Shown here piece after piece: positions 38,765 to 59,623 of a stretch of 64,000 nt of DNA. The notes below the pieces were generated by a model. It ran no database searches and was not told the origin of the DNA. It saw only the letters and a list, made by a program, of their open reading frames with translations. This stretch comes from an uncultured Candidatus Binatia bacterium (GTDB taxonomy: Bacteria; Desulfobacterota; Binatia; Bin18), in contig OZ243961.1 of assembly GCA_965214605.1 (NCBI GenBank), forward strand, positions 553,917-617,916, given 5' to 3'. How positions within the stretch are numbered: the first letter of the stretch is position 1; the number at the start of each line of letters is the position of its first letter. Position numbers and translations under genes: made by a program.

Positions 38765-39935
38765 AACGGTTTTCGTTTGGCTCGCGGCGGCACGGCAGTT
38801 GCTCTGGTTTACGGAGGGCGGGATTGCGTGCTCCCGGGATGGCGTCACGCGGGGATTGCATCCCCCTCTCATCTCCAGCTAGTATCCGCAACAGGGGGGC
38901 ATCGCCCATGCCCAAGAGGTTTGAGGACACGACGAGATCCATGATCCGCCCCGTGCAGACGTCAAAATCAATGAACCTGAACTTGGTGCGCCGGCCTGTT
39001 CCGGCAACTCAACGCGCAGCAACCGCTCAGCGTTTCGCACGGCAAACAGCGCAGCAACCTGCGCGCTAGGACGGAGAGAACGACCATGAGCGCTACACTG
39101 AGCCCCGCAGAACGCGCCCGCTTTCTCCAGGCGCTGAAGGAGGACTCCGACTTCCGCGAGGCGGTACGCCAGCACCTCCTGAGCGACGCACTGCTGGAAC
39201 TGCCGGAAAAATTCGCCCAGTTCGCCGCCTACGTCAACGAATTTATCGCCAACACCAACGAATTTATCGCCAACACCAACAAATTTATCGCCGACCAAAA
39301 GGCATTCAATACCCGCACCGAAGAACGCCTGGACCGGATTGACGACCGTCTGGACCGTGTTGAAGGCCGTCTGGACCGTGTTGAAGGCCGTCTGGACCGT
39401 GTTGAAGGCCGTCTGGACCGTGTTGAAGGCCGTCTGGACCGGATTGACAACCATCTGGACCGGATTGACAACCGGCTGGACCGGATTGACGACAGCATCG
39501 GCATCCTGAAAGGCAACGCAGCGCGACGTCTGCTCAGAGATCACCTCGAAGGCGTCCTAGAACTCGTAGGCGTAGAGGATTTCGTAAGAATCCTGTCCAG
39601 CAGCGACCTGATTCGCCTGATGCGCACCTCAGGCATGGCTCGCGAGATACCCTACGGAGAACGGCGGAGTTTCTATGCCGCCGATCTGGTCATCGAAGCC
39701 GCCGACGCAACGGGTGCCCCCTGTTATATCACGGCCGAGGGGTCCTTCACCGCGGATAAGCGGGACAGCAGCCGGGCGATTCGGAATGCCGCATTCCTGA
39801 CCCGGCTTACCGGCCACCCGGCCTCCCCTGTCGTTGCCAGCATGAGGAACGACTACGAAGTGCAAGAGCTGGTCAATCAGGAAACCATCCGCTGGTTCCA
39901 GCTGGACGAGCGGGACCTCGAAGCGGATTAGGACG
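38765..39935. repeat. tandem duplication unit 1 (~1.2 kb: 320-bp leader plus repeat-protein gene)
   Basis: near-identical to 39995..41095 apart from internal 21-bp repeat copy number. Confidence 0.8.
39086..39931 (+). CDS. hypothetical protein with variable heptad (21-bp) tandem repeats and conserved C-terminal domain, copy 1
   Basis: 281 aa; (FIANTNE/K)x2 ... (RLDRVEG)x4 (RLDRIDN)x2 coiled-coil repeats; C-terminal ~150 aa identical to copy 2. Confidence 0.6.
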   Translation: MSATLSPAERARFLQALKEDSDFREAVRQHLLSDALLELPEKFAQFAAYVNEFIANTNEFIANTNKFIADQKAFNTRTEERLDRIDDRLDRVEGRLDRVEGRLDRVEGRLDRVEGRLDRIDNHLDRIDNRLDRIDDSIGILKGNAARRLLRDHLEGVLELVGVEDFVRILSSSDLIRLMRTSGMAREIPYGERRSFYAADLVIEAADATGAPCYITAEGSFTADKRDSSRAIRNAAFLTRLTGHPASPVVASMRNDYEVQELVNQETIRWFQLDERDLEAD

Positions 39936-39994: not shown

Positions 39995-41095
39995 GCTTTG
40001 GCCAGCGGTTTTCGTTTGGCTCGCGGCGGCACGGCAGTTGCTCTGGTTTACGGAGGGCGGGATTGCGTGCTCCCGGGATGGCGTCACGCGGGGATTGCAT
40101 CCCCCTCTCATCTCCAGCTAGTATCCGCAACAGGGGGGCATCGCCCATGCCCAAGAGGTTTGAGGACACGACGAGATCCATGATCCGCCCCGTGCAGACG
40201 TCAAAATCAATGAACCTGAACTTGGTGCGCCGGCCTGTTCCGGCAACTCAACGCGCAGCAACCGCTCAGCGTTTCGCACGGCAAACAGCGCAGCAACCTG
40301 CGCGCTAGGACGGAGAGAACGACCATGAGCGCTACACTGAGCCCCGCAGAACGCGCCCGCTTTCTCCAGGCGCTGAAGGAGGACTCCGACTTCCGCGAGG
40401 CGGTACGCCAGCACCTCCTGAGCGACGCACTGCTGGAACTGCCGGAAAAATTCGCCCAGTTCGCCGCCTACGTCAACGAATTTATCGCCAACACCAACGA
40501 ATTTATCGCCAACACCAACAAATTTATCGCCAACACCAACAAATTTATCGCCAACACCAACAAATTTATCGCCAACACCAACGAATTTATCGCCGACCAA
40601 AAGGTCTTCAATGCCCGCACCGAAGAACGCCTAGACCGGATTGACGACAACATCGGCATCCTGAAAGGCAACGCAGCGCGACGTCTGCTCAGAGATCACC
40701 TCGAAGGCGTCCTAGAACTCGTAGGCGTAGAGGATTTCGTAAGAATCCTGTCCAGCAGCGACCTGATTCGCCTGATGCGCACCTCAGGCATGGCTCGCGA
40801 GATACCCTACGGAGAACGGCGGAGTTTCTATGCCGCCGATCTGGTCATCGAAGCCGCCGACGCAACGGGTGCCCCCTGTTATATCACGGCCGAGGGGTCC
40901 TTCACCGCGGATAAGCGGGACAGCAGCCGGGCGATTCGGAATGCCGCATTCCTGACCCGGCTTACCGGCCACCCGGCCTCCCCTGTCGTTGCCAGCATGA
41001 GGAACGACTACGAAGTGCAAGAGCTGGTCAATCAGGAAACCATCCGCTGGTTCCAGCTGGACGAGCGGGACCTCGAAGCGGATTAGGACGTGATA
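39995..41095. repeat. tandem duplication unit 2
   Basis: see unit 1. Confidence 0.8.
40325..41086 (+). CDS. hypothetical protein with variable heptad tandem repeats, copy 2
   Basis: 253 aa; (FIANTNE/K)x5 and no RLDRVEG block; otherwise identical to copy 1. Confidence 0.6.
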   Translation: MSATLSPAERARFLQALKEDSDFREAVRQHLLSDALLELPEKFAQFAAYVNEFIANTNEFIANTNKFIANTNKFIANTNKFIANTNEFIADQKVFNARTEERLDRIDDNIGILKGNAARRLLRDHLEGVLELVGVEDFVRILSSSDLIRLMRTSGMAREIPYGERRSFYAADLVIEAADATGAPCYITAEGSFTADKRDSSRAIRNAAFLTRLTGHPASPVVASMRNDYEVQELVNQETIRWFQLDERDLEAD

Positions 41096-52696: not shown

Positions 52697-53948
52697 GACT
52701 TCTCCCTTCTGCAACAGCTGTCGTGTTCCCCCCTACTAGCAGCTTGGACAAGAGCCATGACCAACGTCGCAATCCCTGCCCCTTGCAGCCGCAAAGCCCG
52801 CTACCACTGCGCCTTTGTGGCCGGGTGGTCATCGTCTGTCTGAGACGCTTCTCCGATAGCTCTGGCTCTGGCTTCGGCCTGACACTAGTCCATCCCGGTC
52901 TTTTACAACTCTTTGGCTCTAGTCCGTGTGTCAAAAGCCATGACTTGGCTCTCCCCTTTCCTGCCCAATATACCCCCTATTAAGGAAGAAAACAGCGGGG
53001 AAAACTTTGCTATCTCACCTTAAACACCTATAGGGAGGTATTGTCTGATTGCCAGGCATGTCAAGCCGCGGCCTGCTTGCCTCGCCCCCAGCCTCTCCCG
53101 CGCCGGGAGGGGGGAAAGCCTCCGCCTACAGCAGGTGAAATTGGCACAGTACTCTGGCCACCTCCGGATCGCTACGCTGTTCTAACGCCCAGAACACCTC
53201 TCTCAGCTCCTCCAACCGCAGGCGGTTGCCGCTGAGGTCATCTTCCAGGCTCCCCACCTGCCTGCGCAAAGGTCCAACTCATCGTTCGTCGGTTCCGCAG
53301 CACAAAGCCTCTGCTAAGCCGCCACGAGTGTGCTACAGGCACTCTAGTAGCCTCAGGGTCAACTGAAATTGGCGGGCAAACCGTGCGGCCATGTCCTCCC
53401 GCAGTTGGTGAGAACGCCTAGCCGTATCGGTCCAGAGTTGCTCATTCTGTTGGGCCCGCAGCTGGCCCATCTCCGCCGGCAACCGACCGATGTCTCCACG
53501 CAATTGCTGGGACCGCGTCCGCCAACCCCGCTTGTCGGGCTTCGAGTCGTATCAGACGCCTCGGTCAAGGTCGGGGATAGCTCTCCGGGGCGGGCAAGAA
53601 CACTATGACCAAAACCCCCGGGAGGAAGGATTAACTCATGGCGGCATTCAAGGTCGGATGCCGGAAATGTCAAGTCATGTGGAAAAGGGGATCAGCCTGA
53701 CTCGACTGACGGGGCCGTTATGGCATCCACAGCTTCTCCTCAGCAGGGGTAAGCCAAGGCGGCATAATATCGAAAGGGGCGAGCCAGCAACCGCAGCGGC
53801 TCGGTCCCCCCTCCCCTCCTCTCTCCAAGGGGAGGAAAGTGCAGACGGAGACACGACTCGCCAGCGGCTCAATTCCTGGTCTTGCTTGTTTCAAATCCCA
53901 TGTCTAGGCTGTGTTGGGAAAGCTCTTCAGCAGACGAATAGGAGAGAT

Positions 53949-56900
53949 ATGAGACGACAACATCACAGTGGTCAGAACGCTCGTGACTGGCGGCGCCAAA
54001 TAGCAGCCTCTGCGGAGAAACAACAAGAAAGCGTCTTCACATATAAGTTTGGACTGAGCATACAAGAGGGAGATTTAGACTTTGCCGCGGCCACTCGAAC
54101 CTACGACATCACCGAAGGGATTTTATGCGGGAGCTTAATCGGCTTGATATGCGCTGTGCATCTGTCCGGGTTTCGCCTATTTTCCAAGAGCGGGGAGACA
54201 CGCCAGTTCCGAAATCGAAGTCGATATCCCGAAGACGCATTCACCAAGGCGTTCCGCGCTCATACGGAAATCATAAACCCTGACATTACGATTCAGTCAA
54301 TTGAGGCTGTCTTCGCCGCACCTCCGCGAAAGAAAATAGCCTGGTCAGCGGACACCCTTGGGAAGCGGCTGTTTCAAACCTGGAACAATCGCTCCCCAAA
54401 AGACGCAGAGAGAGAGCACCCAGAATTTTTACTGGCCCAGGGAATCGCTTGCGAAGTCGCCAAACAGTTCTCCGGATGGAAGGAACTCGCCGACAATGTA
54501 AGCGGTGCACTGGCCTGCGCTGACAGATATCTGGCGACCCTGGGAGACTCCTTTCCAAAACTCAGTAACCTGCCACCCGGAACCACGATCAATCCAGACT
54601 CTTGTACGCTTGCCTACGATCCCGAATCGCCCTTCGTTGAGATGGTTGGTAACGAAGAAAACTGGCTCCATCAGGTAGTGGCGGTTTGTGCTGGCAGGCT
54701 GAAACGAGACATGCCCGATCGTGACCTATCCTCGTCTGATTTTGCAAAGCGTCTGAACGACGCTGTTGTTACTAGTCAGCACAATGGACTGTCTTGGTTA
54801 TTCGGCAACGGCCTACGCTACCTTCGGAAATCAAGCATTGAGCGGATTACCGAAAACCTTGATGTTCCACACGGGAAGCGCCAACGAGTTGAACAACTCA
54901 AAGCCTTTGCCGACGCGCTTCCTGACAATCCATTTTTCGACACCAATGGCTATGCCGAGTTTCGTACCTCCGTCGGTGGCAAGATCGCCTCATGGGTCTC
55001 GAACTACTGGAAGCGCATTTGCGAACTTGCGACGTTGCATTCTCAGCCGCCGGATATCGCTATTCCCGAAACGCTGCAAGATCCCGATAACGCCTTTCTG
55101 TTTTCTGGTCAGCACACCAACGCTGCCGGCCTCATAGACCTCTCTAATCGCATCCCTGAGCGGGTCAAAAAAGCCGGCAATGCGCTTGTTGTTCTGCGTG
55201 GAAGTTGTATTCCTGGACCGGAAGATATCGCCGTCGTTGAATCCGTTGCCGATGAGATGACCGAACTCACTGGGCAACTCTCCATGCTCGACAACCGCAT
55301 TCGGCAGGAAACCGAACGCGCCAAAGACGCCGAAAACGAAAAACGTGCCAAGGTCCTAGAATCCCTCAGGCCAAACATTCCCAAAGGTCTCAAGGATCTG
55401 CCCAAACTAAACAGCATATCAGGCGGCACCGTGGACGCTACCGGTGAGATCAAACGGCTGGAAGCCGACCTGAACTCCGTCATACGAGCACGCCGTGAGC
55501 ACTTCCGGCAACTCTCTGAATGGGCGGACAGTAACGCAGGCGGCCTTGATCCCCTGCCCATCCTTAAAGAACGCGAACAAGAGGCGCTTTCCGACCGAAA
55601 CATGGACCTCGATTGTGCAGCTGAATACGCTATCCGGCGTCTGCTTGATCGCATCGGCGTCATGTCGCATCGACTGTCGCCAAGTGTAGCCGAGCAAATC
55701 CGGACCGCCATGACGCCGCTTTTTCGCAGGAAAAAAGAGGCAAACCGCTACTTCTACAATCGCAACGGCAGGATCTATCGGCATCCCTTCAGCACCTCAC
55801 GTCACCAGGCTTATGCCATAGACGTAGAGCGTGCCCACGCAACCGATTGGCTCTTGTGGTTGGAGGAGCGGACGACAGAAATCCGTAACGCTCTGCGCGC
55901 GGATCAGACACGCCTACGCGATCTTCTGTTGATGGAAGCTTTTGTCCTGACGACACGGCTCGGCGGTCTCTCTGATCGTGTACCGGGGGATCTGGCGAAA
56001 CCGGAAAACGACTGTCTCAACATTCCTCCCCTGCTCAAAGCGCAGCTCGAGGCTAGGGAGGTTTCGCGCGATGTGGCCGTGCGCGCCTTCAATCTGTTCA
56101 ATAGTGCTATCAATGGTCTGTCGTTTCGCGCCTTCCGTGATAGTTTCATTGTTCGCGTTAAGTTTCAGCGCCAAGATCGCGAAGAAGTATTTTATGTCCC
56201 GAAGGAACGCCCCTGGCAGGCACCAGCTGACTATGATTCAGCCAAGGGTGAGATATCTAAGGGCTTGAAGCTCTCCGCAGTCGTGCGTGACCAAACCGGG
56301 GCTGTTCTGCCGCGTGAGACAGCCAAGGGCTTGAGTAAGGCGAAGTTTCCCGAGCCGGGTACGCGTGCCCTGCTGCGTCAATCGCCTCATGACTGGTTCG
56401 TCGAACTCGATGTCCGCTCTACCCAGGCTTCGGAGTTGGCAGGGCTGCCCGTCAAGAAGAACAAAGACGGACTCAAGCGCTGGAAAGTCCTGAAAAAGCC
56501 GGCCTTTCGACTAGTCGGGCCGCCCTCGTTCAAGACGCAGCTCGACCGCGCTCTGACAAGCGGAGAGGTGAAGCTCGGCGACTACACGCTCATCATTGAC
56601 CAGCTCTTCAAACAGTCCTTGTACGTCGAAGGTGAGGAGATACACCTTTTGGCTGAACCGGTAAAGATTCGGGCAGAACTGGCGGTTCCAGTAATAGACA
56701 ACCGGCCGTATCCCAAGTCTGAAACCGACTTGATATTTAACAAGATCGTTGCCATAGACCTTGGCGAGCGACGGGTCGGCTACGCGGTCTTCTCGCTCAT
56801 AGACTTCGTGGAAAACGGTTGCCAAAATCCGATCAAGGTGGGGAGCGTCGCCATTCCCGCTTTCAGGAAACTGATGGCCGCGGTCCGCCGCCACCGCGGG

Positions 56901-57734
56901 TCGCGGCAGCCCAACCAGAAGGTCGACCAAACCTACTCGAGAGCGCTGATGCAGTTCCGAGAAAACGTGGTGGGAGACGTCTGCTCTCGCATTGAGACCT
57001 TGTGCGAATACTTCGGCGGATTTCCCGTACTCGAAAGTTCGGTGGGAAATTTCGAGACAGGGGGCCGCCAGCTGGAGATGATCTATGGTTCAGTCCTGCG
57101 CCGCTACACTTTCTCCGAAGTGAAAGCCCATAAAGCCACCCGTAGCCATCATTGGTTCACAGCGGACACCTGGAAGCATCCCTACGTCTACACCTACACC
57201 TACACCTGGAATAAGAGAGAAAAGCAATATTCCGGCCCATCCAAGCCGCTGAAGATATTCCCCGGCGTCACGATCAACCCGGCCGGCACCAGCCAGACTT
57301 GCCAGCATTGTAAGCGGAATGCCCTTCAGGCGCTGCGTAACATGACGGACAAGGTCGAAGTGGGAGAAGACGGCCGCGTAGTCCTCGGAAACGGGACGAT
57401 ACGGCTTCTCGAACGAGCCGATTATCTTCCTTCCGAACGAAGAAAATTTCGTCACAACAAAGCAAGGCCGCCGCTAAACGTGCCTGCCCAGAAAGGATCC
57501 CGGCTAAGCCGCGACATCACGCGTATCGCCAGACGAAACATGCGGCAACCCCCATCTTCCACAATGTCACCCGATACCACACAGTCTCGCTTCAAATGCG
57601 TGTACGTTGACTGCGGCTATGAGGGGCATGCCGACGAAAATGCCGCAATTAACATCGGCCGGCGTTTTTTGGAACGGATCGATATGGAAACGTCGAGAGG
57701 GACGTGCCGGGACTTGACCGGGCAGCGAGAATGA
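53949..57734 (+). CDS. cas12: Cas12-family (type V) CRISPR effector, ~1261 aa
   Basis: C-terminal TnpB-like core: RuvC-I IVAIDLGERRVGYAV, RuvC-II VLESSVGNFE, Zn-finger CQHCKRN...CVYVDCGY, RuvC-III GHADENAAINIGRRF; large N-terminal REC-like region; SD GGAGAG before the ATG at 53949; upstream part of the 53490 ORF looks non-coding. Confidence 0.75.
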   Translation: MRRQHHSGQNARDWRRQIAASAEKQQESVFTYKFGLSIQEGDLDFAAATRTYDITEGILCGSLIGLICAVHLSGFRLFSKSGETRQFRNRSRYPEDAFTKAFRAHTEIINPDITIQSIEAVFAAPPRKKIAWSADTLGKRLFQTWNNRSPKDAEREHPEFLLAQGIACEVAKQFSGWKELADNVSGALACADRYLATLGDSFPKLSNLPPGTTINPDSCTLAYDPESPFVEMVGNEENWLHQVVAVCAGRLKRDMPDRDLSSSDFAKRLNDAVVTSQHNGLSWLFGNGLRYLRKSSIERITENLDVPHGKRQRVEQLKAFADALPDNPFFDTNGYAEFRTSVGGKIASWVSNYWKRICELATLHSQPPDIAIPETLQDPDNAFLFSGQHTNAAGLIDLSNRIPERVKKAGNALVVLRGSCIPGPEDIAVVESVADEMTELTGQLSMLDNRIRQETERAKDAENEKRAKVLESLRPNIPKGLKDLPKLNSISGGTVDATGEIKRLEADLNSVIRARREHFRQLSEWADSNAGGLDPLPILKEREQEALSDRNMDLDCAAEYAIRRLLDRIGVMSHRLSPSVAEQIRTAMTPLFRRKKEANRYFYNRNGRIYRHPFSTSRHQAYAIDVERAHATDWLLWLEERTTEIRNALRADQTRLRDLLLMEAFVLTTRLGGLSDRVPGDLAKPENDCLNIPPLLKAQLEAREVSRDVAVRAFNLFNSAINGLSFRAFRDSFIVRVKFQRQDREEVFYVPKERPWQAPADYDSAKGEISKGLKLSAVVRDQTGAVLPRETAKGLSKAKFPEPGTRALLRQSPHDWFVELDVRSTQASELAGLPVKKNKDGLKRWKVLKKPAFRLVGPPSFKTQLDRALTSGEVKLGDYTLIIDQLFKQSLYVEGEEIHLLAEPVKIRAELAVPVIDNRPYPKSETDLIFNKIVAIDLGERRVGYAVFSLIDFVENGCQNPIKVGSVAIPAFRKLMAAVRRHRGSRQPNQKVDQTYSRALMQFRENVVGDVCSRIETLCEYFGGFPVLESSVGNFETGGRQLEMIYGSVLRRYTFSEVKAHKATRSHHWFTADTWKHPYVYTYTYTWNKREKQYSGPSKPLKIFPGVTINPAGTSQTCQHCKRNALQALRNMTDKVEVGEDGRVVLGNGTIRLLERADYLPSERRKFRHNKARPPLNVPAQKGSRLSRDITRIARRNMRQPPSSTMSPDTTQSRFKCVYVDCGYEGHADENAAINIGRRFLERIDMETSRGTCRDLTGQRE

Positions 57735-57841
57735 GCCACCATCGTTCCTATTCTCTTCCAGGCCCAAGGACTTATCATCCATACCTCAACCTGGAAGACG
57801 TCCCCGCCTCCCCGGACGCCCTTCAAAGAGGGGAGGCATCA

Positions 57842-58897
57842 TCACCTTACCAGCTTTGAAGAGGAATGGGAGGTAAGGGGAATATCGCCTGGCAGCCGAT
57901 AGGAGACCTTTGGCGGACGCCCGCCTTTACGTTCACCCGCGGCGGGAACGATAAACCGGCGCATGTCGCCGGCCAGGTAAGCCCGCAGCGCCAACACGCT
58001 TCCATGCAACAGATTTTTACGGCGCACAAACTGGTGGGTAGCGGGAACGTAGACAACCTTCTCCATATCGTTCTTCAGCCCGGACAAAGTGGCTTTGGTC
58101 AGCGAGTCAGAGGCATTGTCCGGGGGATGGGTCCGGCAGGCCCCGGCAACGGCCTCTTCAATCATGTACCGGGCTGGCTCCATGAGATCGTAGACAAGTC
58201 CCATGTAGTCGGTCCCTTCATGCAGGAATCCGTGACTGGGCGAAAGCCGGTGGATTAACAACCAGCGCAAGAGTACCCCAGACAGGAACATGGACCCTGC
58301 ATCAAGGGCGGCTGGTAAAGGCCCCTCCCCTCTGCGAGTGATATCAGGGTATCCCATCCGAGTGAAATATCTCCGCCAATATCTGCGTGATTGCTCGGCT
58401 TCCCAGGCCCGTATCTGTCCAAGATTCCGTGTACGCGCCAGCCGTTTGTAGACAGCGCTTGGCATGGGCAGTGTGTTCTCTACCGCCCGAAAACGTTCAC
58501 GTACTAGAGTCCGCGCAATATAGGCACGTTTAGATTTATTTGTCCGGGTAACGATCTGTCTGGTCAAAATATCGTCGGCATCGACTCTGGGAGCTGGCAA
58601 GAAAATCGCTGGGCGGCTGATGTTGCGGCGGTGAACAAGGAGGGGCACTCGGCGAAAGGCAAGTTCGTCAATGAGAGCGACCGGAATCTGGCCAGTCGCG
58701 CCGTAGAACATGATGCAATCAAGCTGCGACAGCTCAGTATCGACCTCGCCTCCGTTATATGTGAACCGCCATAAGTTCTTTTTGAGCCTTGCTACCTGAG
58801 AGACGTATGGTAGCCACAAGGTCGTCTTGCTTCTCCGCTTGGTTGATTTCCATGTCCAAAGAGAATTTGGATGTTGAAATTGATCAATTTTAACCAT
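57842..58897 (-). CDS. cas1: CRISPR-associated endonuclease Cas1
   Basis: Cas1 blocks LDCIMFYGATGQIPVALIDELAFRRVPLLV and HGFLHEGTDYMGLVYDLMEPARYMIEEAV; no cas2 or cas4 adjacent. Confidence 0.85.
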   Translation of the reverse strand: MVKIDQFQHPNSLWTWKSTKRRSKTTLWLPYVSQVARLKKNLWRFTYNGGEVDTELSQLDCIMFYGATGQIPVALIDELAFRRVPLLVHRRNISRPAIFLPAPRVDADDILTRQIVTRTNKSKRAYIARTLVRERFRAVENTLPMPSAVYKRLARTRNLGQIRAWEAEQSRRYWRRYFTRMGYPDITRRGEGPLPAALDAGSMFLSGVLLRWLLIHRLSPSHGFLHEGTDYMGLVYDLMEPARYMIEEAVAGACRTHPPDNASDSLTKATLSGLKNDMEKVVYVPATHQFVRRKNLLHGSVLALRAYLAGDMRRFIVPAAGERKGGRPPKVSYRLPGDIPLTSHSSSKLVR

Positions 58898-58958
58898 ATA
58901 TGTCCTCAGTAAGAAAATCGAAAAATCATTGTAATATAAATATTTATCTGGTATACCT

Positions 58959-59623
58959 CCAGTTCTGAAGGGGAATTAGAGGCCGAAAAATATGAGTTCT
59001 GAAGGGGAATTAGAGGGTGTGGAGCATGACGCAATCCAGTTCTGAAGGGGAATTAGAGGCTGAAATACGGGCGTTCCTCCAGTTCTGAAGGGGAATTAGA
59101 GGTTCTCAACAGCATGAGGAGTCCAGTTCTGAAGGGGAATTAGAGGTTCTCAACAGCATGAGGAGTCCAGTTCTGAAGGGGAATTAGAGGTTCTCAACAG
59201 CATGAGGAGTCCAGTTCTGAAGGGGAATTAGAGGTTCTCAACAGCATGAGGAGTCCAGTTCTGAAGGGGAATTAGAGGTTCTCAACAGCATGAGGAGTCC
59301 AGTTCTGAAGGGGAATTAGAGGTTCTCAACAGCATGAGGAGTCCAGTTCTGAAGGGGAATTAGAGGTTCTCAACAGCATGAGGAGTCCAGTTCTGAAGGG
59401 GAATTAGAGGTTCTCAACAGCATGAGGAGTCCAGTTCTGAAGGGGAATTAGAGGTTCTCAACAGCATGAGGAGTCCAGCAGGGGAATTAGAGGTTCTCAA
59501 CAGCATGAGGAGTCCAGTTCTGAAGGGGAATTAGAGGCACGCGCATGACGCACCCCCCAGTTCTGAAGGGGAATTAGAGGATGGAAGGCTTCGGGCTGCC
59601 CAGTTCTGAAGGGGAATTAGAGG
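58959..59623 (+). CRISPR. CRISPR array, 16 repeats of 24 nt (CCAGTTCTGAAGGGGAATTAGAGG) with 18-20 nt spacers; AT-rich leader at 58898..58958
   Basis: period 43-44 bp; 6 distinct spacers, one present in 10 tandem copies; second repeat lacks 5' CCA; one repeat is truncated (59475..59493). Confidence 0.85.

What the first reader, a model, noticed from the sequence alone, without database searches (positions are those of the whole stretch)
59103..59537. One spacer-repeat unit present in 10 tandem copies, with one internally deleted repeat
Spacer TTCTCAACAGCATGAGGAGT plus the repeat is reiterated 10 times at a 44-bp period. One repeat in the run carries an internal deletion of 5 bp (59475..59493). 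Flanking spacers are unique. Identical multi-copy spacers are rare and suggest replication slippage or unequal recombination inside the array, possibly dosage amplification of one crRNA, or an assembly collapse/expansion artefact.
Basis: seen in the sequence. Interest (0 to 1): 0.55.

Follow-up and report, generated by a model that had tools for sequence, protein, structure and literature searches.

The report
Ten-fold amplified spacer in Cas12c array
A genuine CRISPR array next to a Cas12c gene carries the same short spacer ten times in a row. This is most likely an unusually large replication-slippage expansion of a kind already known at low copy number, so it is a curiosity rather than a new mechanism.

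Summary
Spacer TTCTCAACAGCATGAGGAG(T) occurs 10 times (59103 to 59494). There are eight identical 44-bp units, then a 39-bp unit whose repeat is CCAGCAGGGGAATTAGAGG (59475-59493), then a tenth copy.

The array (58958-59623, + strand, 16 repeats) belongs to a complete type V-C locus:
- cas12c, 53949-57734, catalytic triad intact
- a tracrRNA/scoutRNA, 57750-57837, whose pairing with the repeat shows compensatory changes across 11 loci
- cas1 alone, 57842-58897 on the minus strand
- a conserved AT-rich leader

I surveyed 19 related type V-C arrays (about 285 spacers). The sister species has the identical repeat and Cas1 86% identical. Duplicated spacers occur in only 3 of these arrays and never exceed 2 copies, so 10 copies is an outlier in degree, not in kind.

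Best explanation: adaptation-independent replication misalignment or unequal recombination, which accelerates once two copies exist, followed by a complex indel in one repeat. That indel removes bases that pair with the tracrRNA.

No convincing target was found. The 20-mer is absent from viral and JGI metagenome contigs. The one 18/19 viral match is at chance level and lacks a PAM. There is no self-match in the window.

Copy number cannot be verified without reads, so an assembly error remains possible. Selection for crRNA dosage is untested.

The parts
53949..57734 (+). cas12c (type V-C effector, 1261 aa). The mechanical ORF starts at 53490, but the family model and the relatives start at the ATG at 53949, which follows AGGAG.
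   Evidence: NCBIfam Cas12c equivalog, 1074 bits, model positions 1-1244 of 1246. PDB 7v93 Cas12c2 E=1.4e-152 and 7vyx Cas12c1 E=1.4e-122. The RuvC motifs AIDLGE, FPVLE and ADENAA align with Cas12c1. Relatives are 1256-1267 aa.
57750..57837 (+). tracrRNA/scoutRNA. It contains the PK1 anti-repeat AUUCU, stem 1, stem 2, the dock CCUC, stem 3, the anti-repeat CCCUUCA and a 3' GC-rich hairpin.
   Evidence: Resembles the Cas12c2 tracrRNA printed in PMC9522604 Table S1. Conserved in 11 loci. The proposed structure, including the three trans helices with the repeat, is 99.4% paired. Five pairs show compensatory changes, two of them tracr:repeat pairs.
57842..58897 (-). cas1, the only adaptation gene (no cas2 or cas4)
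   Evidence: Pfam Cas_Cas1 E=8e-14. TIGR00287 match at 55.5 bits, below its 71.7-bit cut-off. 86% identical to P0001, which sits in the same gene order. No Cas2/Cas4 match in neighbouring ORFs.
58898..58957 (+). AT-rich leader containing the conserved TTGTAATATAAAT...CTG.TATA motif
   Evidence: Leaders from 12 loci, printed in register with the first repeat, share this motif. Degenerate terminal repeats lie at the opposite end of the array in relatives.
58958..59623 (+). CRISPR array: 16 repeats of (T/C)CCAGTTCTGAAGGGGAATTAGAGG, 15 spacers, 6 distinct spacer sequences
   Evidence: The repeat's 3' end ...UUAGAGG matches the Cas12c2 crRNA handle ...UUUGAGG.
58983..59016 (+). Irregular first unit: a short spacer (CCGAAAAAT, followed by ATG where the next repeat should begin TCC), so that repeat lacks its normal 5' TCC
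   Evidence: Comparable aberrant units occur in relatives L003, L008 and L010.
59103..59537 (+). Amplified block: 10 copies of spacer TTCTCAACAGCATGAGGAG, each followed by a repeat
59475..59493 (+). Variant repeat CCAGCAGGGGAATTAGAGG between spacer copies 9 and 10. It lacks the UGAA segment that pairs with the tracrRNA anti-repeat.
   Evidence: Sequence. The lost bases are alignment columns 109-112 of the R:AR-3 helix, which covaries with the tracrRNA.
59538..59598 (+). The two oldest unique spacers (CACGCGCATGACGCACCC and ATGGAAGGCTTCGGGCTG). Their downstream repeats begin with C instead of T.

Best explanation
This is a bona fide type V-C (Cas12c, Cas1-only, tracrRNA-dependent) CRISPR array, transcribed left to right from the leader next to cas1.

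[quoted passage not shown] The most likely cause is adaptation-independent replication misalignment or unequal recombination between the 25-nt repeats. After the first duplication, the stretch of perfect homology grows from 25 nt to 69 nt or more. Further gains then become easier, as in any minisatellite.

A later complex 5-bp indel damaged the repeat between copies 9 and 10. Transcription and Cas12c/tracrRNA processing should yield about nine identical, normal crRNAs. A tenth would carry a handle that has lost most of one tracrRNA-pairing helix.

Shown here: the sequence facts, the system type, the orientation, the tracrRNA pairing, and the rarity of such runs among relatives. Inferred: the slippage mechanism, the order of events, and the processing consequences.
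For: - Exact 10-fold reiteration, same orientation and same length, and not at the leader end.
- Complete type V-C locus with a covarying tracrRNA and a conserved leader.
- The sister species has the identical repeat. Its arrays show 2-copy duplications in patterns A-B-A and A-B-A-B in 3 arrays, so repeat-mediated rearrangement does occur in this lineage.
- None of 19 related arrays (about 285 spacers) has more than 2 copies.
- Published work: duplications persist in cas1/cas2 deletion strains and keep their orientation (PMC8860593). About 3% of spacers in CRISPRCasdb are duplication candidates, attributed to misalignment (PMC11472070; PMC8047081). Consecutive identical spacers occur in 2391 of 39,378 arrays, mostly with fewer than 3 copies (PMC7913763).
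- The same window holds two paralogous genes that differ only in the copy number of 21-bp repeats. Tandem-repeat length change is therefore active in this genome.
- The variant repeat is a complex indel rather than the homopolymer-type errors seen in one low-coverage relative, L014.
Against: - No reads are available, so the copy number rests on one assembly of unknown type. The organism is absent from the collections searched: the best Cas1 match is 86%, and there is no exact protein record or repeat match.
- Nine perfect units (about 400 bp) exceed short-read length.
- No relative shows a single-unit A-A tandem or any intermediate copy number.
- The unit has no hairpin potential that would favour slippage (z = 0.8 and 1.8).
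Confidence: 0.68

Rival explanations
1. Assembly artefact. The true array holds fewer (or a different number of) copies, and the assembler traversed a 44-bp loop an arbitrary number of times or mis-polished a tandem region.
For: The perfect run of about 400 bp is longer than Illumina reads, so a short-read assembly could not fix the copy number. No independent assembly of this organism was found. Ten copies is far outside the 0-2 seen in 19 related arrays.
Against: De Bruijn assemblers usually collapse such loops rather than expand them (my own knowledge). The window has no N and its long genes are unbroken: Cas12c is 1261 aa and matches the model end to end. The unique, complex variant repeat near one end gives the run an internal landmark. 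The close relatives in the genome collection are chromosome-level MAG records, a type of data that would span 440 bp, but the window's own source is unknown.
Confidence: 0.17
2. Selected dosage amplification. The expansion arose by slippage but is maintained because more copies of this crRNA are beneficial. This could apply because some Cas12c enzymes bind their DNA targets without detectable cleavage in vitro, so the effect may depend on occupancy.
For: Ten of 15 spacers, roughly two thirds of the array's output, are this one guide. Cas12c2 and OspCas12c bind but do not cleave DNA in vitro (PMC9522604). [quoted passage not shown]
Against: No target was found. The 20-mer is absent from IMG/VR and JGI metagenome contigs. 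There is no match with 3 or fewer mismatches elsewhere in the window or in related loci. No relative shows amplification. One copy already carries a damaged repeat, which looks like neutral decay.
Confidence: 0.1
3. Ten independent acquisitions of the same prespacer by the Cas1-only integrase, for example from a very abundant DNA fragment.
For: Type V-C adaptation is unusual in being Cas1-only. This array and those of relatives contain aberrant integration-like units: 3-12 nt spacers and truncated repeats.
Against: All ten copies have identical boundaries and orientation. The block is internal, with three newer units between it and the leader. Published reconstructions classify only about 1% of duplicate events as re-acquisitions, against 86% duplications. 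Duplications also occur without cas1 or cas2.
Confidence: 0.04

Closest known systems
Type V-C CRISPR-Cas loci (Cas12c1, Cas12c2, OspCas12c; PDB 7vyx, 7v93)
   Same: - Cas12c effector with a RuvC triad.
- cas1 as the only adaptation gene.
- Short-complementarity tracrRNA/scoutRNA with a CCUC dock pairing to the GAGG anchor at the repeat's 3' end.
- An 18-nt repeat-derived handle ending ...UU(A/U)GAGG.
- Spacers of about 18 nt.
   Different: This is a divergent orthologue: phmmer E=1e-152 to Cas12c2, and 62-74% identity to the nearest relatives found in the genome collection. It comes from an uncultured lineage whose closest relatives are in sponge-associated and soil or sediment MAGs. Two thirds of its array is one spacer.
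Adaptation-independent spacer-repeat duplications in CRISPR arrays (S. thermophilus II-A and III-A; CRISPRCasdb survey)
   Same: Whole spacer-plus-repeat units are copied in the same orientation in the interior of the array, with boundaries at the repeats.
   Different: Reported cases are mostly 2 copies. Arrays with more than 5 identical consecutive spacers were treated as spurious by CRISPRidentify. Here a 10-copy run sits in an array whose authenticity is supported by cas genes, tracrRNA, leader and orthologous arrays.
Minisatellite/VNTR expansion by slipped-strand mispairing (general bacterial phenomenon; own knowledge)
   Same: A head-to-tail identical unit of tens of bp, with perfect copies and one degenerate copy near an end. 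The same window has a coding 21-bp VNTR that differs between paralogues.
   Different: Here the unit is a functional guide-RNA cassette, so copy number translates into crRNA stoichiometry.

Membership tests
Type V-C CRISPR-Cas | Cas12c effector with a C-terminal RuvC domain | tested here: met
   NCBIfam NF033950 Cas12c, 1074 bits against a cut-off of 250, full model length. PDB Cas12c2/Cas12c1 E=1e-152 and 1e-122. The D, E and D motifs are conserved.
Type V-C CRISPR-Cas | Adaptation module of cas1 alone (no cas2, no cas4) | tested here: met
   Cas1 by Pfam above its cut-off; the NCBIfam cas1 match is below its cut-off. Flanking genes are thiolase and hisF/hisH. ORFs of at least 40 aa in the 1.2-kb upstream gap have no Cas2 or Cas4 match. 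The same two-gene layout is seen in all relatives.
Type V-C CRISPR-Cas | tracrRNA/scoutRNA with short docks complementary to the crRNA repeat | tested here: met
   Candidate at 57750-57837. 30 pairs, 99.4% paired across 11 loci. Compensatory changes occur in tracr:repeat pairs 2-118 (UA to CG) and 94-111 (UA to AU). Slid controls give 39-58% paired. Expression was not tested.
Type V-C CRISPR-Cas | Short repeats and spacers of about 17-19 nt | tested here: met
   25-nt repeat. Spacers are 18 nt, or 19 nt for the amplified one. The period is 43-44 here and mostly 43-44 (42-44 overall) in the 19 related arrays.
Type V-C CRISPR-Cas | RNA-guided DNA binding or interference with a 5'-TN/TG PAM | not testable with these tools
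   No verified protospacer. One older spacer has an 18/18 viral match preceded by TG or TC, but the number of hits is at chance level.
Spacer-repeat duplication by replication misalignment | Identical spacer-plus-repeat units, same orientation, contiguous, with junctions at the repeats | tested here: met
   Eight identical 44-mers plus two further copies.
Spacer-repeat duplication by replication misalignment | Independence from the adaptation machinery, and copy-number polymorphism in the population | not testable with these tools
   Needs reads, isolates or a cas1 mutant. Only literature precedent is available.

The most novel reading that the evidence does not exclude
The ten-fold amplification is maintained by selection as a way to raise the dose of one guide. 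Some Cas12c effectors act by binding rather than cutting, which would make array copy number a tunable gain control for silencing one specific, still unidentified target, possibly a host or symbiosis-related one.
Probability: 0.1. Interest if true: 0.55.

Novelty: new member of a known kind. Interest (0 to 1): 0.3.

Why it matters
- It shows that a run of many identical spacers, which array-finding software tends to discard as non-CRISPR, can sit inside an authentic and apparently functional array.
- It gives a natural test case for how crRNA stoichiometry affects a binding-type Cas12c.
- As a by-product, the comparison defines the tracrRNA, the true 25-nt repeat and the leader for a little-studied environmental clade of type V-C systems.
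- Beyond that it is an extreme example of an already described process, not a new mechanism.

Tried and rejected
- Exact-protein look-up of Cas1: not on record.
- Rfam scan of 52.5-60 kb at E<=1: no family, since no Rfam family matched the Cas12c tracrRNA.
- Amplified spacer as a 20-mer: no hit in IMG/VR or JGI metagenome contigs.
- Degenerate repeat pattern in JGI metagenome contigs: no hit.
- Amplified spacer as an 18-mer in IMG/VR: 4 hits, all one homologous glycosyltransferase-like gene. Position 19 mismatches, the upstream bases are CT or CC rather than a TN PAM, and contig GC is 43-47% against 58% for the window. The other spacers gave 1, 2, 0 and 3 hits, so this is chance level. Rejected as a target.
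- None of 231 spacers from relatives hits those viral contigs.
- Self-targeting: no match with 3 or fewer mismatches in the window or in 366 kb of related loci.
- Hairpin-promoted slippage: the unit folds no better than shuffles.
- Hidden cas2/cas4 or another gene in the 1.2-kb gap upstream of cas12c: nothing found.
- A non-CRISPR minisatellite: rejected, because the repeat is identical to that of orthologous arrays with unique spacers.

Full report
**Observation.** The 20-mer TTCTCAACAGCATGAGGAGT starts at 59103, 59147, 59191, 59235, 59279, 59323, 59367, 59411, 59455 and 59494, always on the + strand. Units 1-8 are identical 44-mers. The ninth unit is 39 bp because its repeat reads CCAGCAGGGGAATTAGAGG (59475-59493). 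The tenth spacer is followed by a normal repeat, 59514-59537. TRF reports period 44, 12.5 copies, score 893. Allowing 3 mismatches there are 10 matches against 0.01 expected from shuffles. The flanking spacers are unique.

There are two refinements. First, the shortened repeat is a net 5-bp loss but a complex event: a clean deletion would give CCAGAAGGGG, not the observed CCAGCAGGGG. Second, the base before CCAG belongs to the repeat (see the comparison section). The repeat is therefore 25 nt and the amplified spacer 19 nt.

**What the array belongs to.** The locus is a complete type V-C system.
- The 1414-aa mechanical ORF at 53490-57734 matches the NCBIfam Cas12c equivalog over its whole length, at 1074 bits against a cut-off of 250. 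It also matches the solved Cas12c2 and Cas12c1 structures, with E=1e-152 and 1e-122.
- The real start of cas12c is the ATG at 53949 (1261 aa), as in relatives of 1256-1267 aa.
- The RuvC motifs are intact.
- cas1 lies convergently at 57842-58897.
- No cas2 or cas4 is present.
- A 60-bp AT-rich leader separates the cas1 start from the first repeat.
- hisF and hisH follow the array.

**Orientation and tracrRNA.** The repeat's 3' end (...AAUUAGAGG) resembles the 18-nt Cas12c2 crRNA handle UUCAGGUUGGGUUUGAGG printed in Table S1 of PMC9522604.

The 107-bp gap between cas12c and cas1 contains, on the + strand, a sequence that resembles the Cas12c2 tracrRNA around its dock: GGACTTATCATCCATACCTCAACCTGG against GGAUCAUAGAUCCGUACCUCAAUGUCC. 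I aligned this region joined to the cognate repeat from 11 loci (alignment A1). I then imposed a structure by analogy with the published Cas12c2 scaffold: stems 1-3, PK1, the PK2 dock and R:AR-3.

The result was 99.4% of cells paired, against 39-58% when partners were slid. Five pairs carry compensatory changes. Two of these are intermolecular:
- Repeat GGGGAAUU becomes GGGGAGUU together with tracr AUUCC becoming ACUCC.
- Repeat UGAAGGG becomes UGUAGGG together with tracr CCCUUCA becoming CCCUACA.

This fixes the transcribed strand as + and the leader at the left. It also shows that the segment missing from the variant repeat (UGAA of R:AR-3) is under pairing constraint. In relatives the degenerate terminal repeat is at the far end from cas1, which is consistent with this polarity.

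**Comparison with relatives.** The source organism is not in the collections searched. There is no exact Cas1 record, the best Cas1 homologue is 86% identical, and there is no repeat or spacer hit in JGI metagenome contigs.
- Five chromosome-level MAG records (Nitrospirales, two Binatia, two Bryobacterales) carry Cas12c at 62-74% identity with the same locus layout. Their arrays have period 43 and no repeated spacer.
- The sister species (P0001, Cas1 86% identical) is found in eight contigs, seven from 'PANK22-1' ENA metagenome assemblies and one Logan assembly. It has exactly the same 24-nt repeat core and shares the thiolase and haem-oxygenase-like neighbours.
- The sister species' arrays differ almost completely between samples (12-42 repeats). 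They end in a common trailer, GCCTTGATG plus a degenerate repeat.
- Three of those arrays contain duplicated spacers, always two copies, in patterns A-B-A (L006, L008) or A-B-A-B (L010).
- Further lineages have small or frozen arrays without duplicates.

In total I examined 19 distinct arrays with roughly 285 spacers. Four spacers were duplicated, and the maximum was 2 copies. The window's 10 copies are an outlier in degree.

The base 5' of CCAG is constant within each array and equals the last 'leader' base. It is G in most arrays, A in L015, L024 and L025, and T in the window, except that the two oldest units in the window have C. It therefore behaves as repeat position 1, copied from the leader-proximal repeat at each integration. 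The C-to-T switch marks the array's polarity. It also shows that the amplified block belongs to the younger, T-type part but is not at the leader end.

**Mechanism.** Ten copies with identical boundaries and orientation, located inside the array, fit duplication of existing units rather than re-acquisition.
- Duplications in S. thermophilus persist in cas1 and cas2 deletion strains and keep their orientation (PMC8860593).
- Reviews and the SpacerPlacer survey attribute them to replication misalignment. About 3% of spacers are duplication candidates, of which 86% are simple duplications and 1% re-acquisitions.
- CRISPRidentify found consecutive identical spacers in 2391 of 39,378 arrays, mostly fewer than three copies. 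It regarded clusters of more than five as spurious.

I infer a first slippage between 25-nt repeats, followed by easier further gains once the perfect homology reached 69 nt or more, and finally a complex indel in one repeat.

The unit has no unusual hairpin potential. The same window contains two adjacent paralogous coiled-coil genes that differ only in the copy numbers of 21-bp repeats, so tandem-repeat length change is active in this genome.

Cas12c2 recognises both the upstream repeat and the first nucleotides of the downstream repeat when it cuts pre-crRNA (PMC9522604). On that basis I expect copies 1-8 to be processed normally. Copy 9 has an altered downstream repeat, and copy 10 has a handle lacking most of R:AR-3. 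These consequences are inferred, not shown.

**Targets.**
- The 20-mer is absent from IMG/VR and JGI metagenome contigs.
- The 18-mer hits one gene family in four related viral contigs. Position 19 mismatches, the upstream bases are CT or CC rather than TN, contig GC is 43-47% against 58% for the window, and the gene is glycosyltransferase-like.
- The other four spacers gave 1, 2, 0 and 3 18-mer hits, so one independent hit is what chance gives.
- The oldest spacer's three hits are one family at GC 64% with TG or TC upstream. This is a possible true protospacer but is not statistically distinguishable from chance.
- No self-match exists in the window or in related loci, and spacers from relatives do not hit these viral contigs.

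**Artefact question.** Without reads the copy number cannot be verified. A perfect run of about 400 bp cannot be resolved by short reads. On the other hand, the window has no N and its long genes are intact. The run also carries a unique, non-homopolymer variant. I put misassembly at about 0.17.

**Verdict.** This is an ordinary type V-C array with an extraordinary degree of a known rearrangement. Selection for dosage is possible but has no evidence behind it. Interest is modest.

Noticed in passing
window 57750-57837 (+): A Cas12c tracrRNA/scoutRNA lies in the 107-bp gap between cas12c and cas1. Its three contacts with the repeat (AUUCU, CCUC, CCCUUCA) are supported by compensatory changes across 11 loci. 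In relatives a 3' GC hairpin is followed by a U-run, which the window copy lacks (CATCATCACC).
   Followed up: yes
window 58958-59623; L001-L016, L024-L025: The base 5' of CCAG is array-specific and identical to the last leader base: G in most arrays, A in some, T in the window and C in the window's two oldest units. The repeat is therefore 25 nt, and a mutation in the leader-proximal repeat has been propagated to all later units, giving a built-in polarity marker.
   Followed up: partly
window 58983-59016; L003 13196-13234; L008; L010: Aberrant units occur in several type V-C arrays: spacers of 3-12 nt and repeats missing their 5' or 3' part. These may be faulty integrations by the Cas1-only integrase, or small deletions.
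   Followed up: no
window 52715-53948: About 1.2 kb with no recognisable gene lies between the thiolase gene and cas12c, where the sister species has only 230 bp. ORFs of at least 40 aa have no significant Pfam match. It may be a remnant of an insertion.
   Followed up: partly
window 39086-39931 and 40325-41086 (+): Two adjacent, nearly identical coiled-coil genes (281 and 253 aa) differ only in the copy numbers of two 21-bp (7-aa) repeats: NEFIANT-like x3 against x6, and GRLDRV-like x8 against x1. This is a second example of tandem-repeat length change in this window.
   Followed up: partly
window 59581-59598; L033 3739-3756, L034 7274-7291, L035 5440-5457: The oldest spacer, ATGGAAGGCTTCGGGCTG, matches 18/18 in three related IMG/VR contigs of 64% GC, preceded by TG or TC, which fits the Cas12c TN PAM. 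The hit count is within chance expectation, so this is only a lead.
   Followed up: partly
L006-L013 (sister species, PANK22-1 and Logan metagenome contigs): Contigs encoding an identical Cas1 carry arrays that share only the trailer end and otherwise have entirely different spacers (12-42 repeats). This implies very fast spacer turnover. In contrast, the P0005 lineage shows the same 4-spacer array in six assemblies (L025-L030).
   Followed up: partly
L031, L032: In a relative with Cas1 77% identical, cas12c is split into two ORFs (1020 and 272 aa) and there is no array next to cas1. This is apparently a decaying type V-C locus.
   Followed up: no
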